Part shown: in pieces, positions 8,983 through 60,480 of the stretch
Numbering within the stretch: the stretch's first letter is position 1
Layout of the letters: each line of letters opens with the position of its first letter
NCBI GenBank assembly: GCA_902529885.1
Contig: CABZYC010000001.1
Span: 156,177-220,176, forward strand
DNA length: 64,000 bases
Direction of reading: 5' to 3'
From: an uncultured Candidatus Woesearchaeota archaeon
GTDB lineage: Archaea > Nanobdellota > Nanobdellia > Woesearchaeales > GW2011-AR9
Notes under the pieces: model-generated
Database searches by the model: none
Seen by the model: the letters and a program-made list of their open reading frames with translations, nothing else
Told to the model about the DNA's origin: nothing
Position numbers and translations under genes: made by a program

Positions 8983-9084
8983 ATAGATACAACATTAAAA
9001 TAACTATAAAAAACACCCGTTATAGAAACTAGCTAATGTCAAAAATACCGTTATACATATATAATTTAACTTCACCTAGTAACT

Positions 9085-9912
9085 ATGAAAATTGAATCTT
9101 TTGATAGTACTAAAATTGATTATAATATTAAAAAAGGTAGTAAACCCTGTTTAATATTTGTCCATGGGTGGGCAAATAATAAAACTACATGGAAAAACGA
9201 GATTAAATTTTTTGAAAAGAAAGGATATTCCATAATTAGTTTAGACCTTAGAGGACACGGACAATCTGATAAGCCTGAAAATAAAGAGATGTATACAATT
9301 GAATCCTTTGCTAAAGATATTCATTGTATCATTAAAAAAGAAGAAGTAAAACAATGTGTTCTTATTGGTCACAGTATGGGGGGAATGATTTCTTTAATGT
9401 ATTACAAACTTTTTGAGTATGAGGATAAAGTTAAAGCATTAATCTTGTGTGATACAACATCAAATAATGTTCTTGAGCATAAAAAACTGAATGTGTTACT
9501 GCCCTTCACAAAACATGTATTAGATTTTATTATTGAGCATCAAACAATCTCCCAAAATCATTTTAAACATCTCAAAAATGTTGATTTGAGCACCTATACC
9601 ACTGCGTCTGATTACCGTGTTTTTTACGAGGGTTTACATAATACACCACTTAAATCAGTGTTTGCTTGTTTAGAATCAATGTTAGACCTTAACCTAAAAA
9701 GTATGTTGTCAAAAATTAATGTGCCAGTTCTAATCATTGAAGGTACAAATGATAAAATCCTACCTGAAATTGATTCAATAGAAATGTTCAACCAAATTAA
9801 AGATGCAGAGATCCATTATGTGCATAAAGGAAAACATTTCGTAAACATTGAGAATGTAAGTGAGATGAATAAATCTGTTCTGAATTTCCTTGTTAAACAT
9901 CAATTAGAATAA
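9085..9912 (+). CDS. Alpha/beta-fold hydrolase (esterase/lipase family)
   Basis: HGW oxyanion region and GHSMGG nucleophile elbow (GxSxG). 275 aa. Confidence 0.7.
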   Translation: MKIESFDSTKIDYNIKKGSKPCLIFVHGWANNKTTWKNEIKFFEKKGYSIISLDLRGHGQSDKPENKEMYTIESFAKDIHCIIKKEEVKQCVLIGHSMGGMISLMYYKLFEYEDKVKALILCDTTSNNVLEHKKLNVLLPFTKHVLDFIIEHQTISQNHFKHLKNVDLSTYTTASDYRVFYEGLHNTPLKSVFACLESMLDLNLKSMLSKINVPVLIIEGTNDKILPEIDSIEMFNQIKDAEIHYVHKGKHFVNIENVSEMNKSVLNFLVKHQLE

Positions 9913-9943
9913 TTAATATAAGCTGGAATTATCTTAATTAGTA

Positions 9944-10144
9944 ATGGTTCTATACATTAATAAAAAGGTCATTGAAAAAAATAAACTCTTCTTGTTTATT
10001 TTTGGAGTCATTAGCCTAATTATGGTACCATTTGGATTTTGGATTGAAAGTTTAATTATTATTTTAGTTGGTATACTTATTGCCCTACACATCTTATGGT
10101 TACTTATAATCCCTCTATTTTTGAAAGATGTCCAAGAATTATAA
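9944..10144 (+). CDS. Small hydrophobic protein (2 TM), possibly spurious
   Basis: 66-aa ORF with two hydrophobic segments in very AT-rich DNA. Confidence 0.2.
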   Translation: MVLYINKKVIEKNKLFLFIFGVISLIMVPFGFWIESLIIILVGILIALHILWLLIIPLFLKDVQEL

Positions 10145-10275
10145 ATCATCTTTTACCAATTATAACACATATGAACCGCTTTCCGCATGTTCATGGTACT
10201 GTAAAAGATAAGGCTCGTTGATCCCTTATTTAAGAAAAACATTAAATTTAAATCATACAAGATAATATATTTAAT

Positions 10276-11340
10276 ATGATATTTAATTTATTCAACTTAC
10301 TTCTTGGTAAAAAACATAAACAAACCCAAGAAAAAATCATCTCTAATTCTAAAAGATTTTTCCATATATTATCTAAAAATAAAAAATCTAGAAAAACGTC
10401 TTATGATATTGATCATCAAAAAACAAGGCTTGAAACAATTAGATGTTTTAAAGCTAATACTGACCTAGGTTTAAAAGAAGATAATTATATCTACCATATG
10501 CTTGAAAAAGAACTAAATGAGATACATAGGTTGAAAGCGAATTTATGTGATCTTAAAAAGATGTTCAATAAAGAAATAGATATATGTGATACAAAAAAAG
10601 ACTGTGCTAAATTACTTAAAAAAATGTTCTCTAAATCATTTAATAATATTAAACTTGAATTAGAAGAATTACTTTCATGCCATAAAAGGTCAAATATTCT
10701 GTTCGATTTAGACCGTCGTGTAAGGACATTAAAAATTATTGAAGATGCAGGAATAGTGTACGATGTTGATCCAAAAAAATTAAAAAATCAACATTACAAA
10801 AATCGTAATATCCAAAATCTTATTTTTATTCATCAAAAACTAAATGAGATGAGCTTTCTTTCAAAAATAAATAATTCGCTTTTAATGAAACATGCCAATA
10901 CTGCTGAAATAAATAGAGAGATTATTAAGTTTAAACAAGACCTACTTAAATTTGACTATAGGTTACAGTCCTGGAAATTTTATTTTATTTACTCTGTATC
11001 TAGGGGAAGACCTTCTAATGGGAGATTTACACTAGATGCTTATTTTAAGGATTCAGAATCAGTGATAAATCACTACATGGGAATAAATGGTGTCAATCAA
11101 GATAGATTATTAAAAAATATTAATGATAGAATAATCATAAGATATTTCAAAAAAAAGGGCGAAGTAAGCCTCCGGTCTATTCATGAGCCATATTATTTTG
11201 TTTCTGAAATAAATAAGCTTCTAAATCAGATTAAAACTATTGAAAATAGCATACTAGACATTGAAGGAGACTTAAAGAAAGTAATTCAGAATGATAAAAG
11301 ATTAAAAAAGGATTCTAGAAAGATCAAACAAAAAAAATGA
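10276..11340 (+). CDS. Lysine-rich hypothetical protein (ORFan) in an AT-rich island
   Basis: 354-aa uninterrupted ORF, K/N/I-rich, no recognisable motif. Local composition is visibly more AT-rich than the flanking housekeeping genes. Confidence 0.45.
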   Translation: MIFNLFNLLLGKKHKQTQEKIISNSKRFFHILSKNKKSRKTSYDIDHQKTRLETIRCFKANTDLGLKEDNYIYHMLEKELNEIHRLKANLCDLKKMFNKEIDICDTKKDCAKLLKKMFSKSFNNIKLELEELLSCHKRSNILFDLDRRVRTLKIIEDAGIVYDVDPKKLKNQHYKNRNIQNLIFIHQKLNEMSFLSKINNSLLMKHANTAEINREIIKFKQDLLKFDYRLQSWKFYFIYSVSRGRPSNGRFTLDAYFKDSESVINHYMGINGVNQDRLLKNINDRIIIRYFKKKGEVSLRSIHEPYYFVSEINKLLNQIKTIENSILDIEGDLKKVIQNDKRLKKDSRKIKQKK

Positions 11341-11526
11341 GATCATTATTTAATCATAGATTAGGAAGAAACAACTTCATCACCACTGTGTATTTACACA
11401 GTCAAAAGATTGTGAAGAAAGAGCCCCATTAGTGCCGATTATATCTAAAACAAAATCTTGAGTCAAATCAGTTTTAAGACTATATTTCGCAAGGATTTGA
11501 TCTATTTCTGCATGTAAACTTGAGAA

Positions 11527-11674: not shown

Positions 11675-13420
11675 ATGAAAAAGCGTATCGCAGTCATCCA
11701 TAAGGATAAGTGTAATCCGCAAGGGTGCGGTAATTACCTTTGTGCAAAATTATGTCCAGTTAATAGAACTGGTGAAGATTGTATTAAGGAAGGTGACGAA
11801 TATTCTAATAAAGCAGTCATCGACGAGATATTATGTACTGGGTGCGGTATTTGCCCAACACGTTGCCCATACGGTGCAATTGAAATTATTAATCTGCCTG
11901 CAGAACTTGAAAAAGAGCCTGTGCACAGGTTTGATAAAAACAGTTTTGCATTGTATTCCCTCCCTACACCTGTCAACGGAAAAATAACAGGGTTATTAGG
12001 CCGTAACGGTATGGGTAAAAGTACTGCGTTCAAAATTCTTGGTGGGTTACAAATGGCCAACCTTGGAAATTATGAAGAGAAAGCAGATGTACGAAAACTG
12101 TTTGAATATTTTAAAGGGACTCAGATGCTTGCACACCTTGAACGTTTAGAAAAAGGCGAAGTTACTTTATCATACAAACCGCAGCAAGTAGAATTTATCC
12201 CGCGCCAATTTGATGGGACAGTAAAAGAATTGTTCAAATCTGAAAGTGCGAAAGAAATGTTGAAACAACTAGATATTGAACATACATGGGACCGAGATGT
12301 GAAACATATTAGTGGCGGTGAATTACAACGTGTTGCGATTGCAGCAGCTGCCTTAAAAAAGGCAACATTAACATTGTATGATGAGCCGTCAAGTTACCTT
12401 GATATTAAACAGCGTATCAATGTATCAAAGTTTATCCGAGAACATAGTTCTGAAAATACTGCAACCATGGTTATTGAACACGATTTAATCATTTTAGATT
12501 ATATGACGGACGTACTGAACATTATGTACGGGCACCCTGGAGTCTACGGTATTGTATCCGGAGTGAAAAGTGTAAGGGAAGGTATCAACTCTTACCTTGA
12601 CGGTTACTTAAAAGAAGAAAATACCAGGATACGTACTGCACCCTTAAAGTTTGAACAGTCTGTTGAACGTGTGACAGCGTTCCCACAACCTGTATTAGAA
12701 TGGTCAGAACTACAATTTGCAGTTGGTGAATTCAACCTTTCAGTACATAAAGGCGCATTAAACAAAAATGAGATTATTGGTATATTAGGTGAAAACGGTA
12801 TTGGAAAAACTACGTTTGTTAAAATGTTAGCAGGCGAAGTTGAGTGTGACCTTGACCAACAATTAAATGTTGCGTACAAACCACAGTACCTTGACTATGC
12901 AAACAATGAAACTTTAGTTGCTGAATTTTTATCACGGGCCATTGAACACTATGAAGCTTCTATTGTGAAACCACTCAATCTAGAAACTTTGTACGGGCGC
13001 CAACTAAACCAATTGTCAGGCGGAGAACTGCAACGGGTTGTTATTGCAAAAACTTTGGCTGAAAATGCAGACTTGTTCTTATTAGATGAACCATCTGCAT
13101 ACCTTGATGTCGAACAAAGGATAGCCATTGGGAAAGTTATAAAACGGGTAGCTGCTGACCGCGAACTTACCATCATGGTGGTTGACCACGATTTAATGTT
13201 CATGGATTTTTTATCTGACAAAATCATGGTGTTTGAAGGTACACCTGGACAACATGGTGAAGCTACAGGGCCATGGGAAAAACAAGATGGGATGAACAAA
13301 TTTCTTGAAAACCTGAATATTACACTTCGTAGAGACATGCATTCTCACAGGCCACGAATCAATAAACAAAATAGTGTGAAAGATAGAGATCAGCGGTCAG
13401 CTAACAAGTGGTACTACTGA
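11675..13420 (+). CDS. abcE1: ABCE1 / RNase L inhibitor (ribosome recycling factor), Fe-S ABC ATPase
   Basis: N-terminal 4Fe-4S cysteine clusters (CNPQGCGNYLCAKLCP; CTGCGICPTRCPYG). Two ABC cassettes: Walker A GRNGMGKST and GENGIGKTT, signature LSGGELQR twice. C-terminal RPRINK..YY tail. Confidence 0.9.
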   Translation: MKKRIAVIHKDKCNPQGCGNYLCAKLCPVNRTGEDCIKEGDEYSNKAVIDEILCTGCGICPTRCPYGAIEIINLPAELEKEPVHRFDKNSFALYSLPTPVNGKITGLLGRNGMGKSTAFKILGGLQMANLGNYEEKADVRKLFEYFKGTQMLAHLERLEKGEVTLSYKPQQVEFIPRQFDGTVKELFKSESAKEMLKQLDIEHTWDRDVKHISGGELQRVAIAAAALKKATLTLYDEPSSYLDIKQRINVSKFIREHSSENTATMVIEHDLIILDYMTDVLNIMYGHPGVYGIVSGVKSVREGINSYLDGYLKEENTRIRTAPLKFEQSVERVTAFPQPVLEWSELQFAVGEFNLSVHKGALNKNEIIGILGENGIGKTTFVKMLAGEVECDLDQQLNVAYKPQYLDYANNETLVAEFLSRAIEHYEASIVKPLNLETLYGRQLNQLSGGELQRVVIAKTLAENADLFLLDEPSAYLDVEQRIAIGKVIKRVAADRELTIMVVDHDLMFMDFLSDKIMVFEGTPGQHGEATGPWEKQDGMNKFLENLNITLRRDMHSHRPRINKQNSVKDRDQRSANKWYY

Positions 13421-13723
13421 AATTTTTCCACGAAAATTGTAACCAGGCGTCAACGTATCATAATACACTAAATCTTCCCACACTTGAACTTCTATATCTT
13501 CGCCGGGATTTAGCCGATGGTCAAACGTGCCGTCATAATTTGTTATAGTGTGCACATAAGCATCATGATTCTTAAAACGAATATAAGACCCTTCATAAAC
13601 TTCTAAATCGGGTTGTTCAAAACCTAACATAGTTATGTCAATAACCATCTCTACAGGCCCTACAACTTCTACAGTAGGTGGTAAACAGCCCACTAATAAT
13701 AATAATATCATCCAATACCTCAT
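13397..13723 (-). CDS. Secreted lipobox protein (probable lipoprotein), small beta-rich domain
   Basis: N-terminus MRYWMILLLLVGC has a hydrophobic h-region followed by an L-V-G-C lipobox. Confidence 0.5.
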   Translation of the reverse strand: MRYWMILLLLVGCLPPTVEVVGPVEMVIDITMLGFEQPDLEVYEGSYIRFKNHDAYVHTITNYDGTFDHRLNPGEDIEVQVWEDLVYYDTLTPGYNFRGKISVVPLVS

Positions 13724-13764
13724 ATGTTGGTTATCAAGGTCACAAATATAAACATGCGTTATGT

Positions 13765-14133
13765 TTAATAGTTGTTTTCTAGTGGCGGCATTGGAAACAA
13801 TGTATCTAGTACATCAAGCTTCTTAGAGTATGGTACATGCACCTTACGCAATTTTCCTTGAAAAGCAGAAAATAATGATCTAAACCAGACGTACATAAAC
13901 ACAAGTATAGGTGCCATCATTATCCATGACCAACCAGTCAATAAAGCTATAGGTGCAAGAACTATTTGAGATATGACAACAACTAATAACAAAAATGTGA
14001 AAATGATTGATTGTTTTACATAAAAACGTACAAAAGTGTTTGGGTAAGCATACAAAATTATGCTAAAAAGACCCGTGCATAATGCAAGGACTGCAAGAAA
14101 ACGTTCACCGTGTAAGAAAACGTTTCCAATCAT
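13765..14133 (-). CDS. Small membrane protein (3 TM)
   Basis: Hydrophobic 122-aa ORF between lgt and the lipobox gene. Its start overlaps the end of lgt, so the true start may be further in. Confidence 0.35.
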   Translation of the reverse strand: MIGNVFLHGERFLAVLALCTGLFSIILYAYPNTFVRFYVKQSIIFTFLLLVVVISQIVLAPIALLTGWSWIMMAPILVFMYVWFRSLFSAFQGKLRKVHVPYSKKLDVLDTLFPMPPLENNY

Positions 14134-14887
14134 CTTTGTAATACCTCATAAACATATAACATGATACAACAACCATAAAAACACACATCCATTGTCCTTT
14201 ACTCAACCCATAATACATTATATCCTCTCGAAATACGTCTAGTATTAAACGAGTTATACCATCCCAAAATACAAAATTCCAAAATATGAAGCCAGCAGTC
14301 CATTGATGCACAATGGCCCTAACATTTAACCAAAATAACCAGCCAGTAATAAGAAACCGTTTCCCTGCCGCGTACAGAGTGGACGGGTGCCGGCACCCTT
14401 CAACACCATCGTATACAACGCACCAAGGCGCATCTGTTACACGGCCCAACAGTTCCCCATTAATAAAATTGGCAATACGGCCCAGAGCTAAGGATGCCAT
14501 CACTGGGGCAGCCCCATAATCTGCCATACGCCAAAAGTCCCACTTATACTTTCTGCACCAGAAGTAGTTTGCAACAACTATACCCACTAACCCACCATGA
14601 AAACTCATGCCACCCTTCCATATCTTGAAAATTTCTAAAGGGTTAGAAAAATAGTATGCTGGCTCCCATACATACATGAACAATCGTGCACCAATCACAA
14701 CGCCCATTATTAAAAAAAATGCATAATCTTCAATCTGCTTTTTTGTATAATCTACAAGTTCTCTTCTAGATAAATAACGAAGCCAATATATCACAAAAAA
14801 TACGCCGGCAATGTATGCTAAAGAGTACCAATAAATGTCTAAAGGGCCAATACTTAGGACGATTGGATCAAAATTATGAGTTATCAT
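14105..14887 (-). CDS. lgt: Prolipoprotein diacylglyceryl transferase Lgt
   Basis: N-terminal FDPIVLSIGPLDIYWYSL; Lgt signature GRIANFINGELLGR (compare E. coli GRIGNFINGELWGR); RHPSTLY (compare RHPSQLYE). 260 aa polytopic. Confidence 0.8.
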   Translation of the reverse strand: MITHNFDPIVLSIGPLDIYWYSLAYIAGVFFVIYWLRYLSRRELVDYTKKQIEDYAFFLIMGVVIGARLFMYVWEPAYYFSNPLEIFKIWKGGMSFHGGLVGIVVANYFWCRKYKWDFWRMADYGAAPVMASLALGRIANFINGELLGRVTDAPWCVVYDGVEGCRHPSTLYAAGKRFLITGWLFWLNVRAIVHQWTAGFIFWNFVFWDGITRLILDVFREDIMYYGLSKGQWMCVFMVVVSCYMFMRYYKDDWKRFLTR

Positions 14888-14948
14888 AAACTAAATTTAG
14901 TCGTGTTCACATAAAAGGTTTTTTATGTAGCCACCATTATTTTGTTGT

Positions 14949-15662
14949 ATGGCACGGTTTTGGACACACGTAAAACGAGTTATTCGCGATGCAGACATAC
15001 TCATAGAAGTATTAGACTCACGTCACGTCGAAGAATCACGTAACCGAGAAATTGAAGATAAAGTCCACGAAGCAGGTAAAAGACTCATCTACGTTATTAA
15101 CAAAGTTGATATGGCCGACCTTGACACGATTAAAGTGTATAAAAAATTTTTACACCCTTGCGTCTTTGTAAGTTCACGAGACAGATTAGGCACTACATTA
15201 TTACTTAAAAAGATCTTGGAAGTGAGTCGAGGGAAAGAATGCACAGTAGGTGTTTTAGGATACCCGAACGTTGGAAAAAGTAGTTTAATCAATGCATTGA
15301 GCGGGAAACATGCAGCGAGCACGTCGTCACGTTCAGGACACACAAAGGGACAACAAAAAGTTAGGTTGAACAACAAAATCATGTTGCTTGATTCACCAGG
15401 TGTGTACCCCTACAAAGATGGTAATGAAACAAAACATGCATTAATCAGTGCAGTGGATTATTCTCAATTAAGAGACCCTTACGAAGCCGTGTGCAGACTG
15501 CACGAAGAACACCCAGAATTCTTTTTTCAGTGGACACAGTACGCTGACGTTGACGATATTTTAGAAGATGTTGCAAAACAAAAAAACTTGTTGAAAAAAG
15601 GAGGCGGTATTGACGAAGACCGTGTCTGCAGATACATTGTTAAAGTGTGGCAGCAGGGTTAA
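14949..15662 (+). CDS. Circularly permuted GTPase (YlqF/RbgA-Nug1 family), ribosome-biogenesis type
   Basis: G4 (INKVD) comes before G1 (GYPNVGKSSLINAL) and G3 (DSPG), which is the cpGTPase order. Confidence 0.7.
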   Translation: MARFWTHVKRVIRDADILIEVLDSRHVEESRNREIEDKVHEAGKRLIYVINKVDMADLDTIKVYKKFLHPCVFVSSRDRLGTTLLLKKILEVSRGKECTVGVLGYPNVGKSSLINALSGKHAASTSSRSGHTKGQQKVRLNNKIMLLDSPGVYPYKDGNETKHALISAVDYSQLRDPYEAVCRLHEEHPEFFFQWTQYADVDDILEDVAKQKNLLKKGGGIDEDRVCRYIVKVWQQG

Positions 15663-16306
15663 ATATTGAACCAAGTGTGCCATTCACCCTTATGATTATA
15701 ATTTATAATTTGCCAATTAAAATGGTGTTGTGAAATATAATGGTAAGAAATTGAATTCATATGGCCCATATTCTTAACAACATCATTTGCTAACCTCGAT
15801 AAAAAAGTTTGATCTAAAATTCCGTGAACTACAGATATATGAGTGTAAGTATGTATTGATGCTAAAAAATGTTCAACATTAATATTAACCATGGCCCTTG
15901 AACGCTCAGCATTCTGTTTATATCCAACAATTGCAGACACTTTATTATCACCATAAAAATAACCAATTGGAATCTTTATTGACGCAACCTTTCTACACAC
16001 TAAATATCCAAAAGGGATAAAGATTTTTGCATGCTGATTAATTGAATGCCAATCACTACGATTAATAGAACTACTACCATGGTGTAAAAAGCAGTAATGT
16101 GAAGGATAAAATAACTGTAATGAGAATTCTGCACCTTGAGCATGATTATGTATATAATCTAATGCACGGCCATCACCAGAAGGATTGAAATGAGTGTTAA
16201 GATACAATTGAAAATTAGCAACTTCTTTGTTAACATGCATTTTAAAACCGGATATCTCTACACGATTTTCACGTGCCCCACCAAATAACCTGTTCCAAAA
16301 ACCCAT
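15659..16306 (-). CDS. His-rich hypothetical protein (possible metal-dependent cupin-like enzyme)
   Basis: 215 aa, numerous His residues, no diagnostic motif. Confidence 0.3.
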   Translation of the reverse strand: MGFWNRLFGGARENRVEISGFKMHVNKEVANFQLYLNTHFNPSGDGRALDYIHNHAQGAEFSLQLFYPSHYCFLHHGSSSINRSDWHSINQHAKIFIPFGYLVCRKVASIKIPIGYFYGDNKVSAIVGYKQNAERSRAMVNINVEHFLASIHTYTHISVVHGILDQTFLSRLANDVVKNMGHMNSISYHYISQHHFNWQIINYNHKGEWHTWFNI

Positions 16307-18546: not shown

Positions 18547-19578
18547 ATGCCGTTTAGATCGCACAGGTTTATTCAATCAATGTTGCACAATACTCAACAG
18601 CGTATGGTAGACATTTATAATAAGGATAAAACCTATTCAACATTAAAACAATACAAGATTTCACCAAAATTACTCAAACCGTCGAACGCAGCAGTTGAAT
18701 GGTGGTATTGGACAGGGCATTTGAATAATCGGTTCGGCTTTGAATTTTGTATGTTTAAACTTAACCCGCTAAAACAACGGTTAGGAATCGTGCCAATGTC
18801 CAGTGTACACCATAATGAATGGTACAGTTTACATGCAGCGATCACAGATGTTAAACAAAAAACGTTCATTGCAAAAAGTAGTGCATCATACTTCCATGAA
18901 CCAAAACCGTTACAGTCACCAAACGGAAAAATAACCAGTCTAAAAAAATTAGAATGTAATTTTAATAATCTTAAAATGGACTTATTAGTCGAACCACTTA
19001 CTAAGCTCTTATCACACAGTGAAACTGGTTATAACACTATAGGAGGTATACACAATTTATACTTGAGTTATCCTCGGTGCGATGTAACAGGTACAATCAC
19101 TTTAAACAATGAAACATTCAATGTTACAGGTGACGCTTGGTTCGACCACCAAAAAATGGCTGAGTCACACTTACCAAACATTAAAGGATGGGACTGGTTC
19201 TGTGCGCACATTGGCGATACAAACATTATGGTGTACCAATTACGAGAACATGCACACAATTCTGTAGCGGGGACAATACAAAATAAGCATACAGAGTTTG
19301 TTAAAGATATCATCTTTAAACCAACTAAATATTGGGTTAGTCCATCAACAAAAGCACGTTACCCAATTGAATGGGATATTACTATTAACAACATATTATA
19401 CAAGGTTAAAAGTAATGTTCAAAACCAAGAAATGAACCTTTTACATTCACCAATGGCATATTATGAAGGTTCTGTCTCGTGGTACAAGGGAAAAAAGAAG
19501 GTCGGCCATGGTTATATGGAGCTTGTAGGATACGATAAACGATTACGAACAAAACTTGTTGAAACAATAACGCGTTAA
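18547..19578 (+). CDS. AttH/CrtC-like lipocalin-fold protein (COG5621-like predicted hydrolase)
   Basis: VEWWYWTGHL resembles the conserved EWWY(F/Y)TG motif of the AttH/CrtC N-terminal domain. 343 aa. Confidence 0.4.
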   Translation: MPFRSHRFIQSMLHNTQQRMVDIYNKDKTYSTLKQYKISPKLLKPSNAAVEWWYWTGHLNNRFGFEFCMFKLNPLKQRLGIVPMSSVHHNEWYSLHAAITDVKQKTFIAKSSASYFHEPKPLQSPNGKITSLKKLECNFNNLKMDLLVEPLTKLLSHSETGYNTIGGIHNLYLSYPRCDVTGTITLNNETFNVTGDAWFDHQKMAESHLPNIKGWDWFCAHIGDTNIMVYQLREHAHNSVAGTIQNKHTEFVKDIIFKPTKYWVSPSTKARYPIEWDITINNILYKVKSNVQNQEMNLLHSPMAYYEGSVSWYKGKKKVGHGYMELVGYDKRLRTKLVETITR

Positions 19579-20934: not shown

Positions 20935-21825
20935 CTACGACTTTACAAATGTGTAAAAATTATAAGCATGTTGACCACGTAAAAGTTGCTCGTTGTTCGT
21001 TACTTTAAACAAAGGGTGAGGATGCAAATAACATTGTGAACGGCAAAATATATTTATTATTGAACCCTTCTTAGCCAAAGAGAAATAATTGAAAATAGTG
21101 TCTAAACTTTTTTCATCGTTACGAGTCAAAAAAACAAGGTTACGTTGAGCAGGTTGTAATTTTTCTATCAAGTTTTTCCAATCGCCACCATGCACAATTA
21201 TTTTATCACGAATGTTAGCTAACCGAAGATGACGGTCCAAACTCCGGATAGTATTCAATTCTGGTTCATAAACGTGCTGTGTGCCATAATCCTCCTTATA
21301 ACGGTGCACTTGTTCAAATAATAACGCACCATCTTTTACACCATAAATCTGTAATCCTTCTAAACAAGGATCACTTTTTTGCACAATCATGAAAGCGAAG
21401 TCGCCCCGTAAACCTTGTTTATGCGCAAAAATTCGATAATCACGTTTTGACAAGTCTTTATCATGTAATTGTAAACAGAGGTAATCTTTTTCAGCACGAA
21501 CAACACGCAAAACAAAATCAGGTGTTTTATAATTAATCTTACGTTTTGCAAGGCCTGCAAGGTAAGGGTGAATCTCAGAACGTACTTCTTTTGGCACACC
21601 ACTAAATTCTATAGTTATACTACCTTCTTCCAAATGAGGAAATTTTTCTAAAGTTAAAAGGTTACCTTCTTGTAATACTTCACACATGAACCTGATACTT
21701 TGTAATGAAGGTAACAAACTTCTCACTGAATCATCACAAACAAACACTGTATCGTGTTGCTCATAGTTATATCCTTCCAGCTCCACTTTGGTTGCTTCTG
21801 GAACATCAGAAATGATAGTTATCAT
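20935..21825 (-). CDS. Hypothetical protein (possible THUMP-like RNA-binding N-terminal region)
   Basis: 296 aa, 4-nt overlap with gyrA. No confident motif. Confidence 0.3.
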
Positions 21826-24203
21826 TCAATTTTTGCGATCGCTGCTACACGATCACCCTCATTCAAACGCATTACACGGACACCTTGTGTTACTCTACCA
21901 ATCACATTTATTGAATCACAAGAAACACGTATCCCAATACCTTTCTCTGAAACCAAAAATAGATCCTCGGTCCCATCAACAAGCATAGAAGTTAACACAG
22001 GGCCTGTCTTATCAGATAACTTGAAATTGGTTACACCTTTCGTTGCACGGTGACAAAGTCGATACTCGTTTACTAACGTCCGTTTACCATATCCGTTCTC
22101 AGTGATAGTCAAAATGTGTTTTGTGTCATCAGCAATAATCATTGCAACAACTTCACTTCCACTTTTTATACCGGTCACACCTCGCGCAGTTCTTCCCATT
22201 GGACGAACTTCTGCTTCTAAAAAGCGTGTAGCCCTACCAGCTTTGTTAATCAACATAATCTGTTTTGTACCATCAGTCACACGGACATCAATCAAAGCAT
22301 CATTATCTAAATTTATAGCCCTAATTCCGCCTTTCCTTGGCCTACTAAACGCTTCAAGTGGCGTTTTTTTGACATAACCATTACGTGTTGCCATAAACAA
22401 AAAGCCTTCAGAGAAATCTTTTATTGGAATCACATTTGTGACTGTAGCATCACCTATATTTAACAAGTTTTTAACATGTGTACCCTTACTAGTTCTACTT
22501 GAATCAGGCAATTTCCATACTTTTGTCCAATGAACATTACCTGTATTAGTGAAAACTAATAAATGGTCATGGTTGTGAGCAACGTACACTTGAGCAATAT
22601 AATCATCTTCTTTGGTTTGTGCCGCACGGATACCTTTACCACCTCGGCCCTGACTTTGATAAGTATCTAATGTAACACGTTTTATGTATCCTTGTTTACT
22701 CACAGTTACTACTTGAGGAAGGTTTTCAATCATGTCTTCCATATCAATATCATTAACATCACCAAGACTCACCTTAGTACGGCGAGAATCACCGTAACGT
22801 TCAATGACTGAATCTAATTCAGTATGAATCAAAGTATCTACTCGGTGAGGGTTAGATAATATTGAACGCATATCGTCACAGAAGTCAAGTAGATCTTTGT
22901 GTTCAACACGGATCTTTTCTTGTTCTAATGAAGCTAATTTTTGAAGTTTCAAATCTAATATTGCTTTACTTTGTATGTCTGATAACGAATATTTTTCAAT
23001 CAACATAGATTGAGCAACTTGTGCACTTGCACTATTCTTTATAAGCGGTATTATCTCATCAATGTTGTTCAAGGCAATAAGTAATCCATCTAAAACATGC
23101 AACCTTTTTTCTGCTTTTTGAAGTTGATAGGTAGTACGTCTACGAATAACAACTCGCCTATGCTCAATATGGTGCACTAAAAAGTCTTTCAAACCCACTT
23201 TTTGAGGTTTATTATCTATCAATGCAAGCATGTTCATTGAAAAGTTGATCCGTAACCTACTATACTTGTATAATTGGTTCAATACAATTGTACCGTCAGC
23301 ATCACGTTTGAGATCAATAACAACACGTATACCTTCACGGTCACTTTCATCATTAATGTTACGTATACCTTCAACACGTTTATCTTTTACAAGGTCCGCT
23401 ATTTGTATAATTAAGTCGGCTTTATTAACTTGGTATGGAATCTCACTAATGATAATCCGTGTATCTTCAACAGTTGCAACACCCTGCAAAGTAACACTAC
23501 CGTGCCCTGTCTCGTAAGCATTGATTAATCGTGAACCCCTAAAACATTCTGCGCCAGTCGGAAAATCAGGGGCAGGTACAATCTCCATTAATTCACGAAC
23601 ACTGATATTTGAATCATCTAACACCTTCTTGGTTGCTTCACACACCTCTTTAACGTTATGAGGTGGAATACTTGTAGCCATACCAACTGCAATACCATTA
23701 CTACCATTTACTAACAATTGAGGTACGATGGTTGGCAACACAGAAGGTTCTTTTAAACTAGCATCAAAATTGTCAACAAAATCTACTGTGTCTTTATCGA
23801 TATCTTTCAATAAATCTTCTGCAAATTTTTGTAATTTTGCTTCAGTATATCTCATTGCTGCAGCATTATCGCCGTCTATACTACCAAAATTACCTTGTCC
23901 TTTAATCAATGGATAACGTAGACTGAACTCTTGCGCCATTCGCACTAATGAGTCGTAAACTGCAGTGTCCCCATGAGGGTGGTACTTACCTAACACTTCA
24001 CCAACTATACGTGCCGATTTTTTTGAAGATTTATTATGGAACATCCCCATATCATACATAGCATATAATATACGCCTGTGAACTGGTTTTAATCCATCAC
24101 GAATATCGGGCAATGCACGACCAACTATCACTGACATGGCGTAGGTTACATACGCGGTTGTCATCTCTTCTTTAATTGTACGTTCAACTACGTCTTGATT
24201 CAT
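21822..24203 (-). CDS. gyrA: DNA gyrase subunit A
   Basis: N-terminal [28 protein letters not shown] (active-site Tyr region), GyrA box-like C-terminal beta-pinwheel repeats. 793 aa. Confidence 0.9.
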
Positions 24204-57518: not shown

Positions 57519-58942
57519 GAAAAATCCATTACTGTTACTTCCCTTGTTTTTAAATTAACAACTGGCACCATACAAGGTTCAGGTTCATGCCCTAATTTTT
57601 CTTGAAATTTAGTACATGCTTGCCAGCAGCTCCCACTCATTACTGTTACACCTTTATAATTTGCAACTTTTGAATAATGTATATGCCCTGTGATCATGAT
57701 ATCAGGTATAACTTTAATTAACAATGGGTCTTCTTCATAAGCAGGAAGGTAAGGTGTACTTTTGAATGCTGGAGCTAAATGACGTCGTTTTAACAAAAAT
57801 TGTTGAATTAAATCTGCACGTTTATACCCTCCATTATTCCTTATACTGTCTATATTAGCAACATAATAATCAAAACTGTAACCATGATACATTAATACGT
57901 TAATACCATCAAAATCTTTTGTTTTACCTACTTTAATCATACTTGGATTACTTACTAAATGAACATTTTCTATATCATGTAAAGATTGTGTATATTCCTT
58001 AAAAAAAACAGGTTGAGGCTCAGCTAAATGAACTACATCATGGTTTCCCGGACAAATAAAAATTTGAATATGGGATGGTATTTGTTTAAGGTAAGAAGCA
58101 AAAGCTTCATATTGACCCACAATTGTATCAATAGTAAGTTCTTTTTGTTGGTTTGGATAAATACCAATTCCATCAACACAATCACCAGCAATAAACAAAT
58201 ATCTCACATTCTGAGCTGTTTGTTTTTGAAGTGCACCACCATATTCTCCTTTTAACCATTTAATAAAATTCAAAAATTCTTTTTCCATAAAATTATCTGA
58301 ACCAACATGAACATCACTTATGAACACTGCATGTTCTTCAATTGGAGACATTTTTATTGACCTGTTATGTGGAATGTCTGGCCATATTATCTCATTAACA
58401 AATATTACACCATCACTACCTGTTCCAACAACACCTATCACCTCATCAAATATTATATCTTTTGCATCAACAAAAATGTCTTTATCTTTCATAATTATTG
58501 CTTTACAATTTGATTGTGGGTCTTCTAAAGTTATGATTAAATTCCCATTTTTTGATTCCTTTACATCTGAAACCATCCCTATTATAGAAACATGTTCTCT
58601 ATCTTTTTTACGTTTTAAACGTTGAATTGAAATTATATTTTTCATTGATTTATGAGTACGTATTAAATCATGCAAAAATTTATATCTTGAAGTGAATACC
58701 CGTTGAAAATCTTGAACATTATACTTATATCCTTCATTCTCAAAATTGATAACTATTTCGTGATTTAAAGATAATATTTTAACATTTTTATCATCTTGTA
58801 CAATGTTAACATCATCAATCTCTGCTAATAGTTTCTCATCAAGACCTTCTTCAATCATTTCTTTTGTTACAAATATGCCTTTATCAAACAATTTTTGTAT
58901 TAAATCACTTTTATTCATTGTGTATCTGTAATGATTTCTCAA
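57515..58942 (-). CDS. polB: DNA polymerase II (PolD) small subunit DP1 (Mre11-like phosphoesterase)
   Basis: Calcineurin-like phosphoesterase motifs (GDxHG-like ISDVHVGS, GDCVDG, GNHD). 475 aa, 4-nt overlap with DP2. Confidence 0.8.
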   Translation of the reverse strand: MRNHYRYTMNKSDLIQKLFDKGIFVTKEMIEEGLDEKLLAEIDDVNIVQDDKNVKILSLNHEIVINFENEGYKYNVQDFQRVFTSRYKFLHDLIRTHKSMKNIISIQRLKRKKDREHVSIIGMVSDVKESKNGNLIITLEDPQSNCKAIIMKDKDIFVDAKDIIFDEVIGVVGTGSDGVIFVNEIIWPDIPHNRSIKMSPIEEHAVFISDVHVGSDNFMEKEFLNFIKWLKGEYGGALQKQTAQNVRYLFIAGDCVDGIGIYPNQQKELTIDTIVGQYEAFASYLKQIPSHIQIFICPGNHDVVHLAEPQPVFFKEYTQSLHDIENVHLVSNPSMIKVGKTKDFDGINVLMYHGYSFDYYVANIDSIRNNGGYKRADLIQQFLLKRRHLAPAFKSTPYLPAYEEDPLLIKVIPDIMITGHIHYSKVANYKGVTVMSGSCWQACTKFQEKLGHEPEPCMVPVVNLKTREVTVMDFS

Positions 58943-60116
58943 TCAATTCTTTTAATTTCACCAATAATTTACCGTCAAGACCTAATGAAATTTCTCTTGT
59001 ACGCCCATACCTACCTTTACTGATTATTTTAGCATTAATTATTCCAAGCATATCAAATTCTGCTAACATATCACTAATACGTCTTTGAGTAAGTACATTG
59101 AAATTAACTTGTTTACATAATTTTTGATATATATCATATATCTCCCCAGTAAACATTACTGTGTTTTGAGGATGTAATACAAGTATACTATACAATACTA
59201 GTTGGAATTGTTTAGGTTGTGTTGTAACTGCATGAATTATTTTATCAGTTTCAATTTTACTTTCAGCTTCATCAAGATGATTTACTGTAACATGTTCAGA
59301 CCCATATCGTTCTGCAAGCTCGCCAGCAACACGTAATAAATCAATCGCCCTTCTTGCATCACCATGCTCACGGGCAGCATAAGCCGCACATTTTTCTATC
59401 ACACCTACTTCTACAACATTTTCTCTAAAAGCACGATCACTCCTTTTACGTAAAATATCTTGTATCTGTAAAGCGTTATATGAAGGAAAAATTATCTCTT
59501 CTTCAGATAAACTGCTTCTTACCCTCGGATCCAAATTTTCTGCGAAAATCAAATTGTTACTTATTCCTACTAAAGCAATTTGTGCATTTTTTAATTCGGC
59601 ATTAATACGTGTTAAATTATAAAGAATTAAATCACCAACCTTACTTGTTAATTGATCAATTTCATCAAGTGCTAATAGAATTATTTGTTTTTTATTATCA
59701 ATAAGTGTATAAAATATGTTATATACTTCATCTGTTGGTAACCCAGTTGGAGGAACATCCTTACCTAACTCTTTAATTAACTGTGCAATAAGCCTATATT
59801 CTGTATCAGCTATACGTTTAAGTTTACAATTAACATATATTGTTTTCAAAGGAACACTATTATCTGCAGCAATACGTTCTATACTTTTCAGAACATATTT
59901 TATGCTTAAAGTTTTACCTGTACCTGTTTTTCCATATACAAGTAAACTACTTGGTCTTTCAACCCGTAAACTTGGTGCAAGAATATTTGCAACATCTTGG
60001 ATTAAATTTTCACGATACATTATTTCTTCTGGTGCATAACTAGATAATAATAAACTCTTATCAAGAAATATGCTATCTTTTGTCAGATAATTCTGGAAAA
60101 AATTGTTTACATTCAT
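58911..60116 (-). CDS. cdc6: Orc1/Cdc6 replication initiator
   Basis: Walker A GKTGTGKT, Walker B LDEID, C-terminal winged helix. Start set at the internal ATG at 60116 (MNVNNFF). The longer track ORF would run through an ORB element. Confidence 0.85.
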   Translation of the reverse strand: MNVNNFFQNYLTKDSIFLDKSLLLSSYAPEEIMYRENLIQDVANILAPSLRVERPSSLLVYGKTGTGKTLSIKYVLKSIERIAADNSVPLKTIYVNCKLKRIADTEYRLIAQLIKELGKDVPPTGLPTDEVYNIFYTLIDNKKQIILLALDEIDQLTSKVGDLILYNLTRINAELKNAQIALVGISNNLIFAENLDPRVRSSLSEEEIIFPSYNALQIQDILRKRSDRAFRENVVEVGVIEKCAAYAAREHGDARRAIDLLRVAGELAERYGSEHVTVNHLDEAESKIETDKIIHAVTTQPKQFQLVLYSILVLHPQNTVMFTGEIYDIYQKLCKQVNFNVLTQRRISDMLAEFDMLGIINAKIISKGRYGRTREISLGLDGKLLVKLKELIEKSLQIHNE

Positions 60117-60480
60117 ATAACACTCGCCCCTCAATTTCTTATGGAGAATTGCTTTGCTTAAATAAATTTGGTTATTTTGCCATATATTCATCATTAAAAT
60201 CAATATTATAACTACAAAACAACATACATAACAACAAATTGTCGTCAATAAACAACTAAAAACATTTTATTTATTCTTTATCTCTATACTTATATATATA
60301 TATCTATATTGTAAATAATAATAATAATAATAAGAAAATAAGTTAAATGCAATTATTATGTCTATTTGTGTGTATGTTTACCCTCTCTATTTTTTATTTT
60401 TTGAAAATGAAATTATGTTCCATAGGAAATGAGGGGGTAGGTGACGTAAATTTATAAGTGATAAATATATTCTTTATGAT
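60117..60480. promoter_or_regulatory. Putative chromosomal replication origin (oriC): two inverted ORB elements flanking an AT-rich unwinding region
   Basis: ORB-like elements at 60125-60148 (minus orientation: TTCTCCATAAGAAATTGAGGGGCG) and 60418-60442 (plus: GTTCCATAGGAAATGAGGGGGTAGG). Each has the TCCA-N-GGAA dyad plus a G-string. Between them lies about 270 bp that is mostly A+T, with (TA)7 and (TAA)6 tracts. The region is directly upstream of cdc6 and near mcm and polD. Confidence 0.7.

What the first reader, a model, noticed from the sequence alone, without database searches (positions are those of the whole stretch)
13397..14887. Bacterial-type lipoprotein module (lgt plus lipobox protein) in an archaeal genome
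ORF 14105-14887 carries the Lgt signatures GRIANFINGELLGR and RHPSTLY and the Lgt-type N-terminus. Lgt is the first enzyme of bacterial lipoprotein maturation and is generally considered absent from archaea. It sits in an operon-like minus-strand array with a small membrane protein and a secreted protein whose N-terminus ends in a textbook lipobox (LLLLVGC). Its neighbours (ABCE1, Hef, aIF5B and others) are unambiguously archaeal. This suggests horizontal acquisition of a functional lipidation system and a cognate substrate.
Basis: partly seen in the sequence, partly recalled or inferred. Interest (0 to 1): 0.6.

Follow-up and report, generated by a model that had tools for sequence, protein, structure and literature searches.

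The report
Bacterial-type Lgt module native to Woesearchaeota
A DPANN (Woesearchaeota-like) archaeal genome encodes a complete Lgt, the enzyme that starts lipoprotein anchoring in bacteria, in a conserved gene trio with a small membrane protein and a lipobox-bearing cupredoxin; it is inherited across the lineage, although papers from 2025 and 2026 state that archaea have no Lgt.

Summary
ORF 14105-14887 (-) is a full-length Lgt: Pfam PF01790 scores 201 bits, TIGR00544 scores 173 bits against a cut-off of 119, and the AF2 model matches only E. coli Lgt 5AZB (TM 0.71). All six residues essential in E. coli are present. It overlaps a 122-aa membrane protein gene by 29 nt. A 108-aa protein with the N-terminus MRYWMILLLLVG|C follows, and its model has a cupredoxin fold.

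This is not a local or recent transfer, and it is not contamination. GC and codon use match the neighbouring ABCE1, GTPase and Hef genes. The order Hef - GTPase - lgt - membrane protein - lipobox cupredoxin - ABCE1 recurs in independent contigs whose Lgt is only 47-53% identical. At least 120 protein clusters, those with names being Woesearchaeota, Nanoarchaeota or 'archaeon', form a clade separated from the sampled bacteria in 100/100 NJ bootstraps.

The link to a substrate holds: the only lipobox protein found in about 190 flanking ORFs is the gene downstream of lgt. Most relatives of that protein are lipobox blue-copper proteins, like halocyanin. The window copy has lost its copper ligands. 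The clade has a remodelled glycerol pocket (E202A, Y235E/D, E243D). The lipid donor and the presence of Lsp remain unknown.

The parts
14105..14887 (-). lgt: prolipoprotein lipid (diacylglyceryl-type) transferase, 260 aa, predicted 7-TM protein
   Evidence: PF01790 scores 201.5 bits over the full length. TIGR00544 scores 173.3 bits against a cut-off of 118.9. The AF2 model has pLDDT 88.5, and its only significant PDB match is E. coli Lgt 5azb at TM 0.71.
14444..14482 (-). Lgt signature motif GRIANFINGELLG (residues 136-148), equivalent to E. coli G142-G154 and containing R143, N146, E151 and G154
   Evidence: Sequence. Residue mapping and conservation (122-125 of 125 clade members).
14372..14392 (-). 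RHPSTLY motif (residues 166-172, equivalent to E. coli H196-P197...Y201). It lies just after the short head loop that carries the clade-specific Cys pair (C155, C165).
   Evidence: The Cys pair is present in 125/125 clade members and in 7/77 sampled bacteria.
14911..14917 (-). TATA-like element CTTTTAT about 27 nt upstream of the lgt ATG. This is a candidate archaeal promoter for a leaderless mRNA (pattern only).
   Evidence: Read directly. In an AT-rich genome this could be chance.
13765..14133 (-). Small 3-TM membrane protein (122 aa), DUF4870/MamF_MmsF-like. Its start overlaps the lgt stop by 29 nt. It is a conserved partner of lgt.
   Evidence: Orthologues follow lgt in L001, L002, L003, L085, L088, L084 and L095. 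PF09685 is recorded for the L001 and L095 copies. The window copy itself has no Pfam hit above threshold.
13397..13723 (-). Lipobox pre-protein with a cupredoxin fold (108 aa). The copper ligands Cys, His and Met have been lost.
   Evidence: Alignment to lipobox cupredoxins. AF2 pLDDT 86. Foldseek matches amicyanin and plastocyanin at TM 0.63-0.66 with probability 1.0. PF13473 matches 6/7 members of alignment A2 (the window protein, a 75%-identical relative and five positional orthologues); the window copy is the one that misses.
13685..13723 (-). Signal peptide MRYWMILLLLVG plus the lipobox Cys13 (codon 13685-13687)
   Evidence: The Cys is at least 90% conserved in the 42-sequence alignment A3.
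13746..13752 (-). TATA-like TTTATAT about 26 nt upstream of the ATG at 13723. It is conserved in the 87%-related contig L084 and supports MRYW as the true start.
   Evidence: pattern-based inference.

Best explanation
The window comes from a Woesearchaeota-like DPANN archaeon. Its lgt is a native gene inherited across the lineage, not a recent import.

Inferred mechanism: the Lgt sits in the cytoplasmic membrane with its active site facing outward. It takes the glyceryl-lipid moiety of a phosphatidylglycerol-type lipid and joins it by a thioether bond to the lipobox cysteine of exported pre-proteins. The conserved client is the cupredoxin encoded two genes downstream. In most relatives that client is a lipid-anchored type-1 blue-copper electron carrier, analogous to halocyanin. 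In this genome it is a copper-less derivative.

The small DUF4870-like membrane protein is probably co-translated with Lgt, and its role is unknown.

Shown here: family membership, fold, conservation of catalytic residues, synteny, lipobox conservation and native composition.

Inferred, not shown: catalytic activity, the identity of the lipid donor (archaeal ether lipid or bacterial-type or host-derived diacyl PG), signal-peptide cleavage, and an ancient bacterial origin for the gene.
For: Family and fold.

Catalytic residues: Y26, H103, R143, N146, G154 and R239, all essential in E. coli, plus D129, E151, H196 and R246, are conserved in the window and in 122-125 of 125 clade members.

Native status:
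- lgt has GC 0.395, GC3 0.363 and a CAI-like value of 0.617. ABCE1 has 0.392/0.319/0.632, the GTPase 0.406/0.369/0.602 and Hef 0.410/0.362/0.594.
- The order Hef - GTPase - lgt - membrane protein - cupredoxin - ABCE1 is found in L001, L002, L085, L088, L095 and L091, and with insertions in L003. Lgt identity in L001, L002, L003, L085 and L088 is 47-53%.

Lineage breadth: the best 120 clusters are 46-54% identical (apart from one at 88%), and all the named ones are Woesearchaeota, Nanoarchaeota or 'archaeon'. Clade A separates from the 77 bacteria-labelled genome sequences plus E. coli in 100/100 NJ bootstraps. Further archaeal sub-clades sit in other archaeal contexts.

Substrate link:
- The only lipobox ORFs in the window and in five syntenic loci are the gene downstream of lgt: 6 of 6 at that position and 0 of about 182 elsewhere.
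- 68 of the top 80 cupredoxin relatives carry a strict lipobox and 67 of 80 carry a C..H..M copper site.
- Ten Lgt hits and ten cupredoxin hits share identical longest-contig lengths, including contigs of 2063, 2416 and 4955 nt.
Against: - No biochemical evidence exists for activity.
- Y235, which H-bonds the glycerol C3-OH of the donor and cannot be replaced by F, L or S in E. coli, is Asp in the window and Glu or Asp in 122 of 125 clade members. Activity or substrate may therefore differ.
- No Lsp or Lnt was seen in the window or in about 10 flanking loci. Whole genomes could not be scanned.
- The window's signal peptide is unusually short at 12 aa.
- The window's cupredoxin has lost its copper ligands. 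A 68% relative reads LLLLVGR instead of LLLLVGC, though it comes from a frameshift-prone long-read contig.
- At least one clade-A genome (L096) has lgt without the partner genes.
Confidence: 0.72

Rival explanations
1. Recent horizontal transfer from bacteria into this genome, or a chimeric or contaminated contig at this point. This is.
For: Lgt is a hallmark bacterial enzyme, and two recent papers report it absent from archaea. Woesearchaeota are known to carry many bacterial-type systems.
Against: Composition is indistinguishable from the adjacent archaeal core genes. The same gene order appears in several independent assemblies from different samples (ENA, JGI, Logan) at about 50% Lgt identity. 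The nearest sampled bacterial Lgts are only 34-43% identical, against 46-54% for more than 119 archaeal clusters. Clade A is monophyletic in 100/100 bootstraps.
Confidence: 0.03
2. The protein is an Lgt-family paralogue with a changed job. It might transfer a different group, act on a non-lipobox acceptor, or be catalytically weak, like the second Lgt of M. smegmatis. In that case the adjacent lipobox protein would be processed by another system such as AliA/AliB.
For: Three positions of the conserved H-bond network around the donor's glycerol differ throughout clade A: E202 to A, Y235 to E/D and E243 to D. Y235 and E243 substitutions abolish complementation in E. coli. Archaea have an unrelated lipidation system, AliA/AliB, which is also present in part of DPANN.
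Against: All six residues absolutely required in E. coli are retained. The three changes look like a correlated charge relocation (the acid moves from position 202 to 235) rather than decay, and they are fixed in 106-124 of 124 sequences under evident purifying selection. The conserved adjacency to a lipobox protein argues for a lipoprotein function.
Confidence: 0.15
3. The adjacency of lgt and the lipobox protein is coincidental. Small secreted proteins with a Cys after a hydrophobic stretch are common, and the 108-aa ORF may be a decaying gene or not a lipoprotein at all.
For: The signal peptide is only 12 aa. The copper ligands are lost. No Pfam hit was found for the window copy itself. One relative lacks the Cys. 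One clade-A locus lacks the partner genes.
Against: A lipobox cupredoxin occupies this position in every syntenic locus whose DNA was inspected, except the error-prone L091 (LVGR), while none of about 182 other flanking ORFs has a lipobox. The Cys is at least 90% conserved in 42 aligned family members. The window protein is 99%, 75% and 69% identical to relatives in other samples, so it is maintained. It folds confidently as a cupredoxin.
Confidence: 0.04

Closest known systems
Bacterial Lgt (phosphatidylglycerol:prolipoprotein diacylglyceryl transferase, PF01790/TIGR00544; E. coli structures 5AZB/5AZC)
   Same: The profile match is full length. The model has the same 7-TM fold (TM 0.71). The HGGL motif and the GRxxNFxNGELxG signature are present. 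All six residues essential in E. coli are present, along with R246, H196 and P197. The head domain is small, as in many non-enterobacterial Lgts.
   Different: The host is an archaeon. Identity to the sampled bacterial Lgts is 29-43%. Clade-wide substitutions occur in the donor-glycerol pocket (E202A, Y235E/D, E243D), and the head loop carries an invariant Cys pair (125/125 against 7/77 bacteria). The gene is embedded among archaeal information-processing genes rather than in bacterial contexts such as the lgt-methyltransferase-pgeF arrangement seen in L006. No Lsp or Lnt partner has been identified. The lipid donor is unknown.
AliA/AliB (arCOG02177), the archaeal lipoprotein lipidation proteins of Haloferax volcanii (Nat Commun 2025, PMC12462473)
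   Same: The presumed biological outcome is the same: a thioether-linked lipid on the lipobox Cys of archaeal surface proteins. Two arginines are proposed to be functionally analogous to Lgt R143 and R239.
Halocyanin of Natronomonas pharaonis (Mattar et al. 1994, cited in PMC12462473 and PMC13631571)
   Same: It is a small cupredoxin exported with a lipobox and anchored by a lipid on the N-terminal Cys of an archaeon. Most relatives of the window's 108-aa protein are the same kind of protein, a lipobox plus a type-1 copper site.
   Different: Halocyanin belongs to haloarchaea, which have no Lgt and use AliA/AliB. The window copy has lost the Cys, His and Met copper ligands, so it cannot be a blue-copper redox protein.
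PF09685 (MamF_MmsF / DUF4870) small membrane proteins
   Same: The orthologues in L001 and L095 hit this family. The proteins share the 3-TM layout and the F(Y/H)xKQS motif.
   Different: The window copy does not reach any Pfam threshold. No link between this family and lipoprotein maturation is known to me.

Membership tests
Lgt (PF01790 / TIGR00544) | Full-length profile match above the curated cut-offs | tested here: met
   PF01790 scores 201.5 bits against a cut-off of 24.9, over profile positions 1-239 of 240. The TIGR00544 equivalog scores 173.3 bits against 118.9.
Lgt (PF01790 / TIGR00544) | Signature motif G142-R-L-G-N-F-I-N-G-E-L-W-G154 and the H103GGL motif | tested here: met
   GRIANFINGELLG is residues 136-148 and H97GGL is present.
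Lgt (PF01790 / TIGR00544) | The six residues absolutely required in E. coli (Y26, H103, R143, N146, G154, R239; mBio 2026) | tested here: met
   The window has Y21, H97, R137, N140, G148 and R213. These are conserved in 124-125 of 125 clade members.
Lgt (PF01790 / TIGR00544) | Buried H-bond network residues Y235, E243 and R246, which do not tolerate substitution in E. coli (Mao 2016) | tested here: not met
   R246 is kept (R220). Y235 is replaced by D209 in the window (E or D in 122/125 clade members), E243 by D217 (125/125), and E202 by A173. All 77 sampled bacteria have Y235 and E243.
Lgt (PF01790 / TIGR00544) | 7-TM Lgt fold with a central cavity | tested here: met
   The AF2 model has pLDDT 88.5 and pTM 0.85. 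Foldseek against the PDB gives 5azb at E 1.7e-12 and TM 0.71/0.66, and the next hit has E 0.88.
Lgt (PF01790 / TIGR00544) | Catalysis: transfer of the diacylglyceryl group of PG to the lipobox Cys | not testable with these tools
   This needs an enzyme assay or complementation.
Bacterial lipoprotein maturation pathway (Lgt-Lsp-Lnt) | Presence of signal peptidase II (Lsp, PF01252) in the same genome | tested here: inconclusive
No Peptidase_A8 appears among the Pfam-annotated genes flanking lgt in the archaeal loci with gene tables. Whole genomes could not be scanned.
Lipobox (SPase II-type) pre-lipoprotein | [LVI][ASTVI][GAS]C after a positively charged n-region and an uncharged hydrophobic h-region | tested here: met
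   M-R-YWMILLLLV-G-C has the lipobox L-V-G-C with Cys at position 13.
Lipobox (SPase II-type) pre-lipoprotein | Signal peptide of typical length (from my own knowledge, the PROSITE PS51257 rule puts the Cys at positions 15-35) | tested here: not met
   The Cys is at position 13 and the window has no upstream in-frame ATG, GTG or TTG. Relatives have Cys at positions 19-38. No SignalP-type predictor was available.
Lipobox (SPase II-type) pre-lipoprotein | Lipobox Cys conserved among orthologues | tested here: met
   The Cys is at least 90% conserved in A3. Of the top 80 relatives, 68 pass the strict regex, and several of the failures are visibly N-terminally truncated or have near-miss boxes.
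Cupredoxin / type-1 blue copper protein (PF13473, PF00127) | Cupredoxin beta-sandwich fold | tested here: met
   AF2 pLDDT is 86.1. Foldseek matches amicyanin 1sfd and plastocyanin 1baw at TM 0.62-0.66 with probability 1.0.
Cupredoxin / type-1 blue copper protein (PF13473, PF00127) | Copper ligands His ... Cys-x(n)-His-x(n)-Met | tested here: not met
   Only the first His (VHTIT) is kept in the window. Cys is replaced by Asp, His by Thr and Met by Tyr (YYDTLTPGY against YFCxxHPGM). Of the top 80 relatives, 67 keep the motif.
PF09685 MamF_MmsF / DUF4870 (small membrane protein) | Profile match | tested here: inconclusive
   The window copy has no hit above threshold, only a sub-threshold MASE6 match. 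The orthologues in L001 and L095 carry precomputed PF09685 hits. Homology across the loci is shown by alignment A4.
AliA/AliB (arCOG02177) | Sequence or profile similarity to HVO_2859 | not tested
   No AliA sequence or model was available in the tools. The paper's supplements are not held.

The most novel reading that the evidence does not exclude
Woesearchaeota-type DPANN archaea run a second route to archaeal lipoproteins that is bacterial in origin and independent of AliA/AliB. In this reading the clade-A Lgt has re-engineered its donor-glycerol pocket (E202A, Y235E/D, E243D, plus a disulfide-stabilised head loop). The change would let it use archaeal ether lipids of opposite glycerol stereochemistry, or lipids scavenged from a host. 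The enzyme would serve a dedicated halocyanin-like cupredoxin encoded in the same module, with the DUF4870-like membrane protein as a new accessory factor.
Probability: 0.3. Interest if true: 0.8.

Novelty: new member of a known kind. Interest (0 to 1): 0.62.

Why it matters
[quoted passage not shown] The second paper used this to argue that archaeal lipids require different enzymes, AliA and AliB.

A large clade of canonical Lgt genes, natively encoded and syntenically fixed in DPANN archaea, qualifies that statement. Public databases already label these proteins automatically, but I found no paper that discusses them.

The finding offers a natural experiment on the 'lipid divide'. One can ask which lipid an Lgt transfers in an archaeal cell, whether three pocket substitutions switch donor specificity, and whether Lgt and AliA are alternative or coexisting systems.

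The conserved Lgt-cupredoxin pairing also gives a ready-made enzyme and substrate pair for in vitro work. It suggests that membrane-anchored blue-copper carriers matter to these poorly understood organisms.

Tried and rejected
- Exact look-up of the window Lgt in the contig index: not on record.
- Single-sequence homologue search with the 108-aa protein: only one hit, at 99% identity. A profile of positional orthologues was needed.
- Metagenome scan with the window Lgt: only 7 loci.
It is therefore neither a census nor a fair sample of possible bacterial donors.
- L006, labelled Rhodospirillaceae and 43% identical: I suspected a mis-binned archaeal contig. Its context (lgt, Methyltransf_28, Cu-oxidase_4) contains no archaeal marker gene and looks bacterial from my own knowledge, so it was kept as bacterial.
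- L007, labelled Methanosarcinales: the context is uninformative. It carries the bacterial-like Y235/E243 signature and resembles sub-clade C of Woesearchaeota, so I made no claim about Methanosarcinales.
The test is weak and covers only the window and flanks.
- Sigma-70 promoter and intrinsic terminator scan: at shuffle expectation (7 found against 7.2 expected), and not appropriate for archaea.
- Supplementary tables of the AliA paper, wanted for DPANN phyletic patterns: not held.
- Deep NJ topology, one archaeal Lgt clade against several: unresolved at 54/100. No maximum-likelihood tool was available.
- Candidate replication origin next to cdc6: only weak repeats, dropped.
- Idea that the DUF4870-like protein replaces Lsp: nothing in the alignment supports it (no invariant acidic residue; the invariant columns are F36, Q40 and G92), so I do not claim it.


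Full report
**1. The observation**

- lgt, 14105-14887 (260 aa).
- A 122-aa ORF, 13765-14133, whose ATG lies 29 nt inside the end of lgt.
- A 108-aa ORF, 13397-13723, beginning MRYWMILLLLVGC.

The Lgt assignment is secure.
- Pfam PF01790 matches end to end (201.5 bits, E 1.7e-59).
- The NCBIfam equivalog TIGR00544 scores 173.3 bits against a cut-off of 118.9.
- The only PDB relative by sequence is E. coli Lgt 5azb/5azc (E 3e-33).
- An AlphaFold2 model built on 30 homologues (pLDDT 88.5, pTM 0.85) has one significant Foldseek match in the PDB, 5azb (E 1.7e-12, TM 0.71). The next hit has E 0.88.

The surrounding window is archaeal. Pfam searches identify ABCE1, Hef, a YlqF-like GTPase and Orc1/Cdc6. 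By eye (N-terminal sequences, not family-searched) the ORF list also shows aIF5B, GyrA, an A-type ATPase operon, PolD and MCM.

**2. Not a recent import, not a chimera**

GC content across 13-15 kb equals that of the flanks. Per gene, lgt is indistinguishable from its archaeal neighbours:

| Gene | GC | GC3 | CAI-like |
|---|---|---|---|
| lgt | 0.395 | 0.363 | 0.617 |
| ABCE1 | 0.392 | 0.319 | 0.632 |
| GTPase | 0.406 | 0.369 | 0.602 |
| Hef | 0.410 | 0.362 | 0.594 |

The best 120 homologous clusters (at 90% identity) are one at 88% and then 119 at 46-54% identity. Every cluster that a source names is 'Candidatus Woesearchaeota archaeon', 'Nanoarchaeota archaeon' or 'archaeon'.

Gene contexts retrieved for several of these show the same order as the window: Hef, GTPase, lgt, a roughly 120-aa membrane protein, a small secreted protein, then ABCE1 and aIF5B.
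- This holds in L001 (Lgt 48% identical), L002 (51%), L085 (53%) and L088 (47%), and L095.
- The colinear close relatives L084, L086 and L091 show it too.
- L003 has the same order with extra genes inserted.

Independent assemblies from ENA, JGI and Logan agree, which excludes a chimeric join. The conservation of order at about 50% protein identity indicates long vertical inheritance.

An ancient bacterial origin remains the simplest explanation for a gene otherwise reported as universal in bacteria and absent from RefSeq archaea. I could not resolve a donor.

**3. Breadth and structure of the archaeal Lgt radiation**

I aligned 125 clade-A sequences with 77 bacteria-labelled Lgts fetched from GTDB genomes. 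Clade A averages 62% internal identity and 35% identity to the bacteria. In a later tree with a 23-sequence subsample of clade A, it separates from every bacteria-labelled sequence in 100/100 NJ bootstraps.

An exhaustive HMMER search of 1.84 billion representatives found 335 proteins at E <= 1e-30. Seven representatives carry the full clade-A signature.

Other close representatives fall into further sub-clades of archaeal provenance:
- Sub-clade B keeps Y235 but has D243 and the Cys pair. It sits next to triose-phosphate isomerase among archaeal ribosomal protein genes (L092, L093, and also L004). One member is named Nanoarchaeota and another Woesearchaeota.
- Sub-clade C has the bacterial-like Y235/E243 and no Cys pair. 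It occurs on a Woesearchaeota genome next to RNase P p30 and NAC, and its protein also occurs on a contig of 910 kb.

Whether A, B and C form one clade relative to bacteria is unresolved (54/100).

**4. Catalytic competence and what is unusual**

I mapped the window protein on E. coli Lgt.

Every residue reported as absolutely required is present in the window: Y26, H103, R143, N146, G154 and R239 (mBio 2026). So are D129, E151, H196, P197 and R246. All are conserved in 122-125 of 125 clade members.

Three positions of the buried H-bond network differ across the whole clade:

| E. coli residue | Clade A | 77 sampled bacteria |
|---|---|---|
| Y235 | E or D in 122/125 (Asp209 in the window) | Y in 77/77 |
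| E243 | D in 125/125 | E in 77/77 |
| E202 | A in 106/124 | E or Q in 76/77 |

In the crystal structure the Y235 hydroxyl H-bonds the C3 hydroxyl of the donor's glycerol backbone. The substitutions Y235F/L/S and E243A/Q/R do not complement (Mao 2016).

The pattern looks like a relocation of the acidic group from position 202 to 235 rather than decay. It is fixed under purifying selection. It could still mark a change in how the lipid donor's glycerol is held.

The short head loop also carries an invariant Cys pair (125/125, against 7/77 bacteria). I infer that this is a disulfide on the outer face of the membrane.

**5. The partner genes**

*The 108-aa protein.* It has no Pfam hit itself and only one word-based homologue. 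It does align with the positional orthologues downstream of lgt in the other loci. Of the seven aligned sequences (the window protein, a 75%-identical relative and five positional orthologues), six hit Cupredoxin_1 PF13473; the window copy is the one that does not.

Its AF2 model (pLDDT 86) is a cupredoxin. The best PDB matches are amicyanin and plastocyanin, at TM 0.62-0.66 and probability 1.0.

A profile search found 519 relatives. Of the best 80, 68 pass a strict lipobox test and 67 have a C..H..M type-1 copper motif. Of the next 40, which are ordinary periplasmic-type plastocyanins, only 6 have a lipobox. The family next to lgt therefore consists of lipobox-anchored blue-copper proteins, the same kind of protein as halocyanin, the classic chemically characterised archaeal lipoprotein (references).

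The window copy keeps only the first His ligand. Cys is replaced by Asp, His by Thr and Met by Tyr, so it is not a redox copper protein.

*Linkage to lgt.* With one regex applied to all ORFs, the only lipobox protein among the 69 window ORFs is this gene. Among the 119 ORFs of seven archaeal loci, all five lipobox proteins are the gene downstream of lgt. In addition, ten Lgt hits and ten cupredoxin hits have identical longest-contig lengths, including contigs of 2063, 2416 and 4955 nt. I take these to be the same contigs.

*Exceptions.* L096 has lgt next to ABCE1 without the partner genes. L005 has a truncated lgt. P0205 reads LVGR instead of LVGC, on a long-read contig with obvious frameshifts.

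*The 122-aa membrane protein.* It is homologous across the loci, with conserved F(Y/H)xKQS and GKEKxLPxIG motifs. The L001 and L095 copies carry PF09685 (MamF_MmsF/DUF4870) hits. Its function is unknown. Nothing suggests it is a protease.

*Transcription.* TATA-like elements lie 26-27 nt upstream of the lgt ATG and of the cupredoxin ATG. The latter is conserved in L084. This suggests leaderless transcripts and supports MRYW as the true, unusually short (12 aa) signal peptide. The inference rests on sequence pattern only, in an AT-rich genome.

**6. Mechanism**

Most likely (about 0.7), the pre-cupredoxin is exported. The lipobox Cys then receives a glyceryl-lipid from a PG-type phospholipid through Lgt, and the protein stays anchored on the outer face of the membrane.

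The donor is not known. Woesearchaeota variously encode archaeal-lipid genes, bacterial-type glycerol-3-phosphate dehydrogenase and fatty-acid genes, and they may live on bacterial or archaeal hosts (Castelle 2021). The donor could therefore be archaetidylglycerol, self-made diacyl-PG or host-derived PG.

Signal-peptide removal is also unexplained. No Lsp was seen in the window or in the flanks of the archaeal loci examined, but whole genomes could not be searched (and the locus gene tables).

**7. Comparison with the literature, and novelty**

[quoted passage not shown] Full-text searches found no paper that links Woesearchaeota or DPANN with Lgt. Two DPANN genome papers that were checked do not mention it.

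Public databases already name these proteins 'prolipoprotein diacylglyceryl transferase [Candidatus Woesearchaeota archaeon]'. The gene's existence is therefore not a discovery. As far as I could see, the following are not described:
- that the genes are truly archaeal;
- that they are vertically inherited and locked into a module with a lipobox cupredoxin;
- that they are remodelled in the donor pocket.

I class this as a new member of a known kind, with above-average interest.

**8. Verdict**

Interest is 0.62. The most novel reading that the evidence does not exclude is a bacterial-derived Lgt adapted to archaeal or scavenged lipids, providing a second archaeal lipoprotein pathway with a dedicated cupredoxin client. 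I give it a probability of about 0.3 and an interest of 0.8 if true.

Noticed in passing
L095:7769-8893 and L003:12661-13695: A DAGK_cat (diacylglycerol/lipid kinase catalytic domain) gene directly follows the lgt - membrane protein - cupredoxin module in two relatives. The window has none at that position. This may hint at diacylglycerol-type lipid metabolism linked to the module.
   Followed up: no
L092:7688-7996 and L094:6799-7959: In the other archaeal Lgt sub-clades, the gene immediately upstream of lgt is a thioredoxin (L092) or a membrane-anchored GILT-family thiol reductase (L094). Together with the invariant Cys pair in the Lgt head loop, this suggests a thiol-redox connection.
   Followed up: no
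window 60249-60480: An AT-rich intergenic region (a block with GC about 0.26) lies directly beside Orc1/Cdc6 (58911-60248) and the PolD genes. It is a candidate replication origin. Only weak short repeats were found.
   Followed up: partly
window 9000-11400: A low-GC block (0.26-0.28) contains a lysine-rich 354-aa ORF (10276-11340) with no Pfam family. It lies just upstream of ABCE1 and may be an inserted or fast-evolving element.
   Followed up: no
window 18547-19578: A CrtC/AttH-like two-lipocalin-domain protein (PF07143 plus PF17186) sits next to Hef. The same arrangement is present in the colinear relative L091. This is a lipid- or carotenoid-binding family more usual in bacteria.
   Followed up: no
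L091:10001-10330 (P0205): A 68% relative of the window's cupredoxin reads LLLLVGR in place of the lipobox LLLLVGC. The contig is a polished long-read assembly in which ABCE1 and the small membrane gene are frameshifted, so this could be a sequencing error or a real loss.
   Followed up: partly
L007 (CAZTTX010000014.1, labelled Methanosarcinales archaeon): This contig carries an Lgt 34% identical to the window protein, with the bacterial-like Y235/E243 signature, next to a Peptidase_M50 gene. The same head loop occurs in representative P0291, and a similar M50-lgt neighbourhood occurs in a Woesearchaeota genome (L094). The bin label may be wrong.
   Followed up: partly
window 15659-16306: A 215-aa ORF between the GTPase and Hef has no Pfam or NCBIfam family. 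It is absent from this interval in L001, L002 and L095; L001 instead has a HAD hydrolase between the GTPase and lgt.
   Followed up: no
window 21822-24203: A bacterial-type DNA gyrase A subunit (793 aa), followed by genes I read as ScpB- and ScpA-like (not family-searched), lies in this DPANN genome. GyrA is also present in L091. This is one more bacterial-type system alongside Lgt.
   Followed up: no
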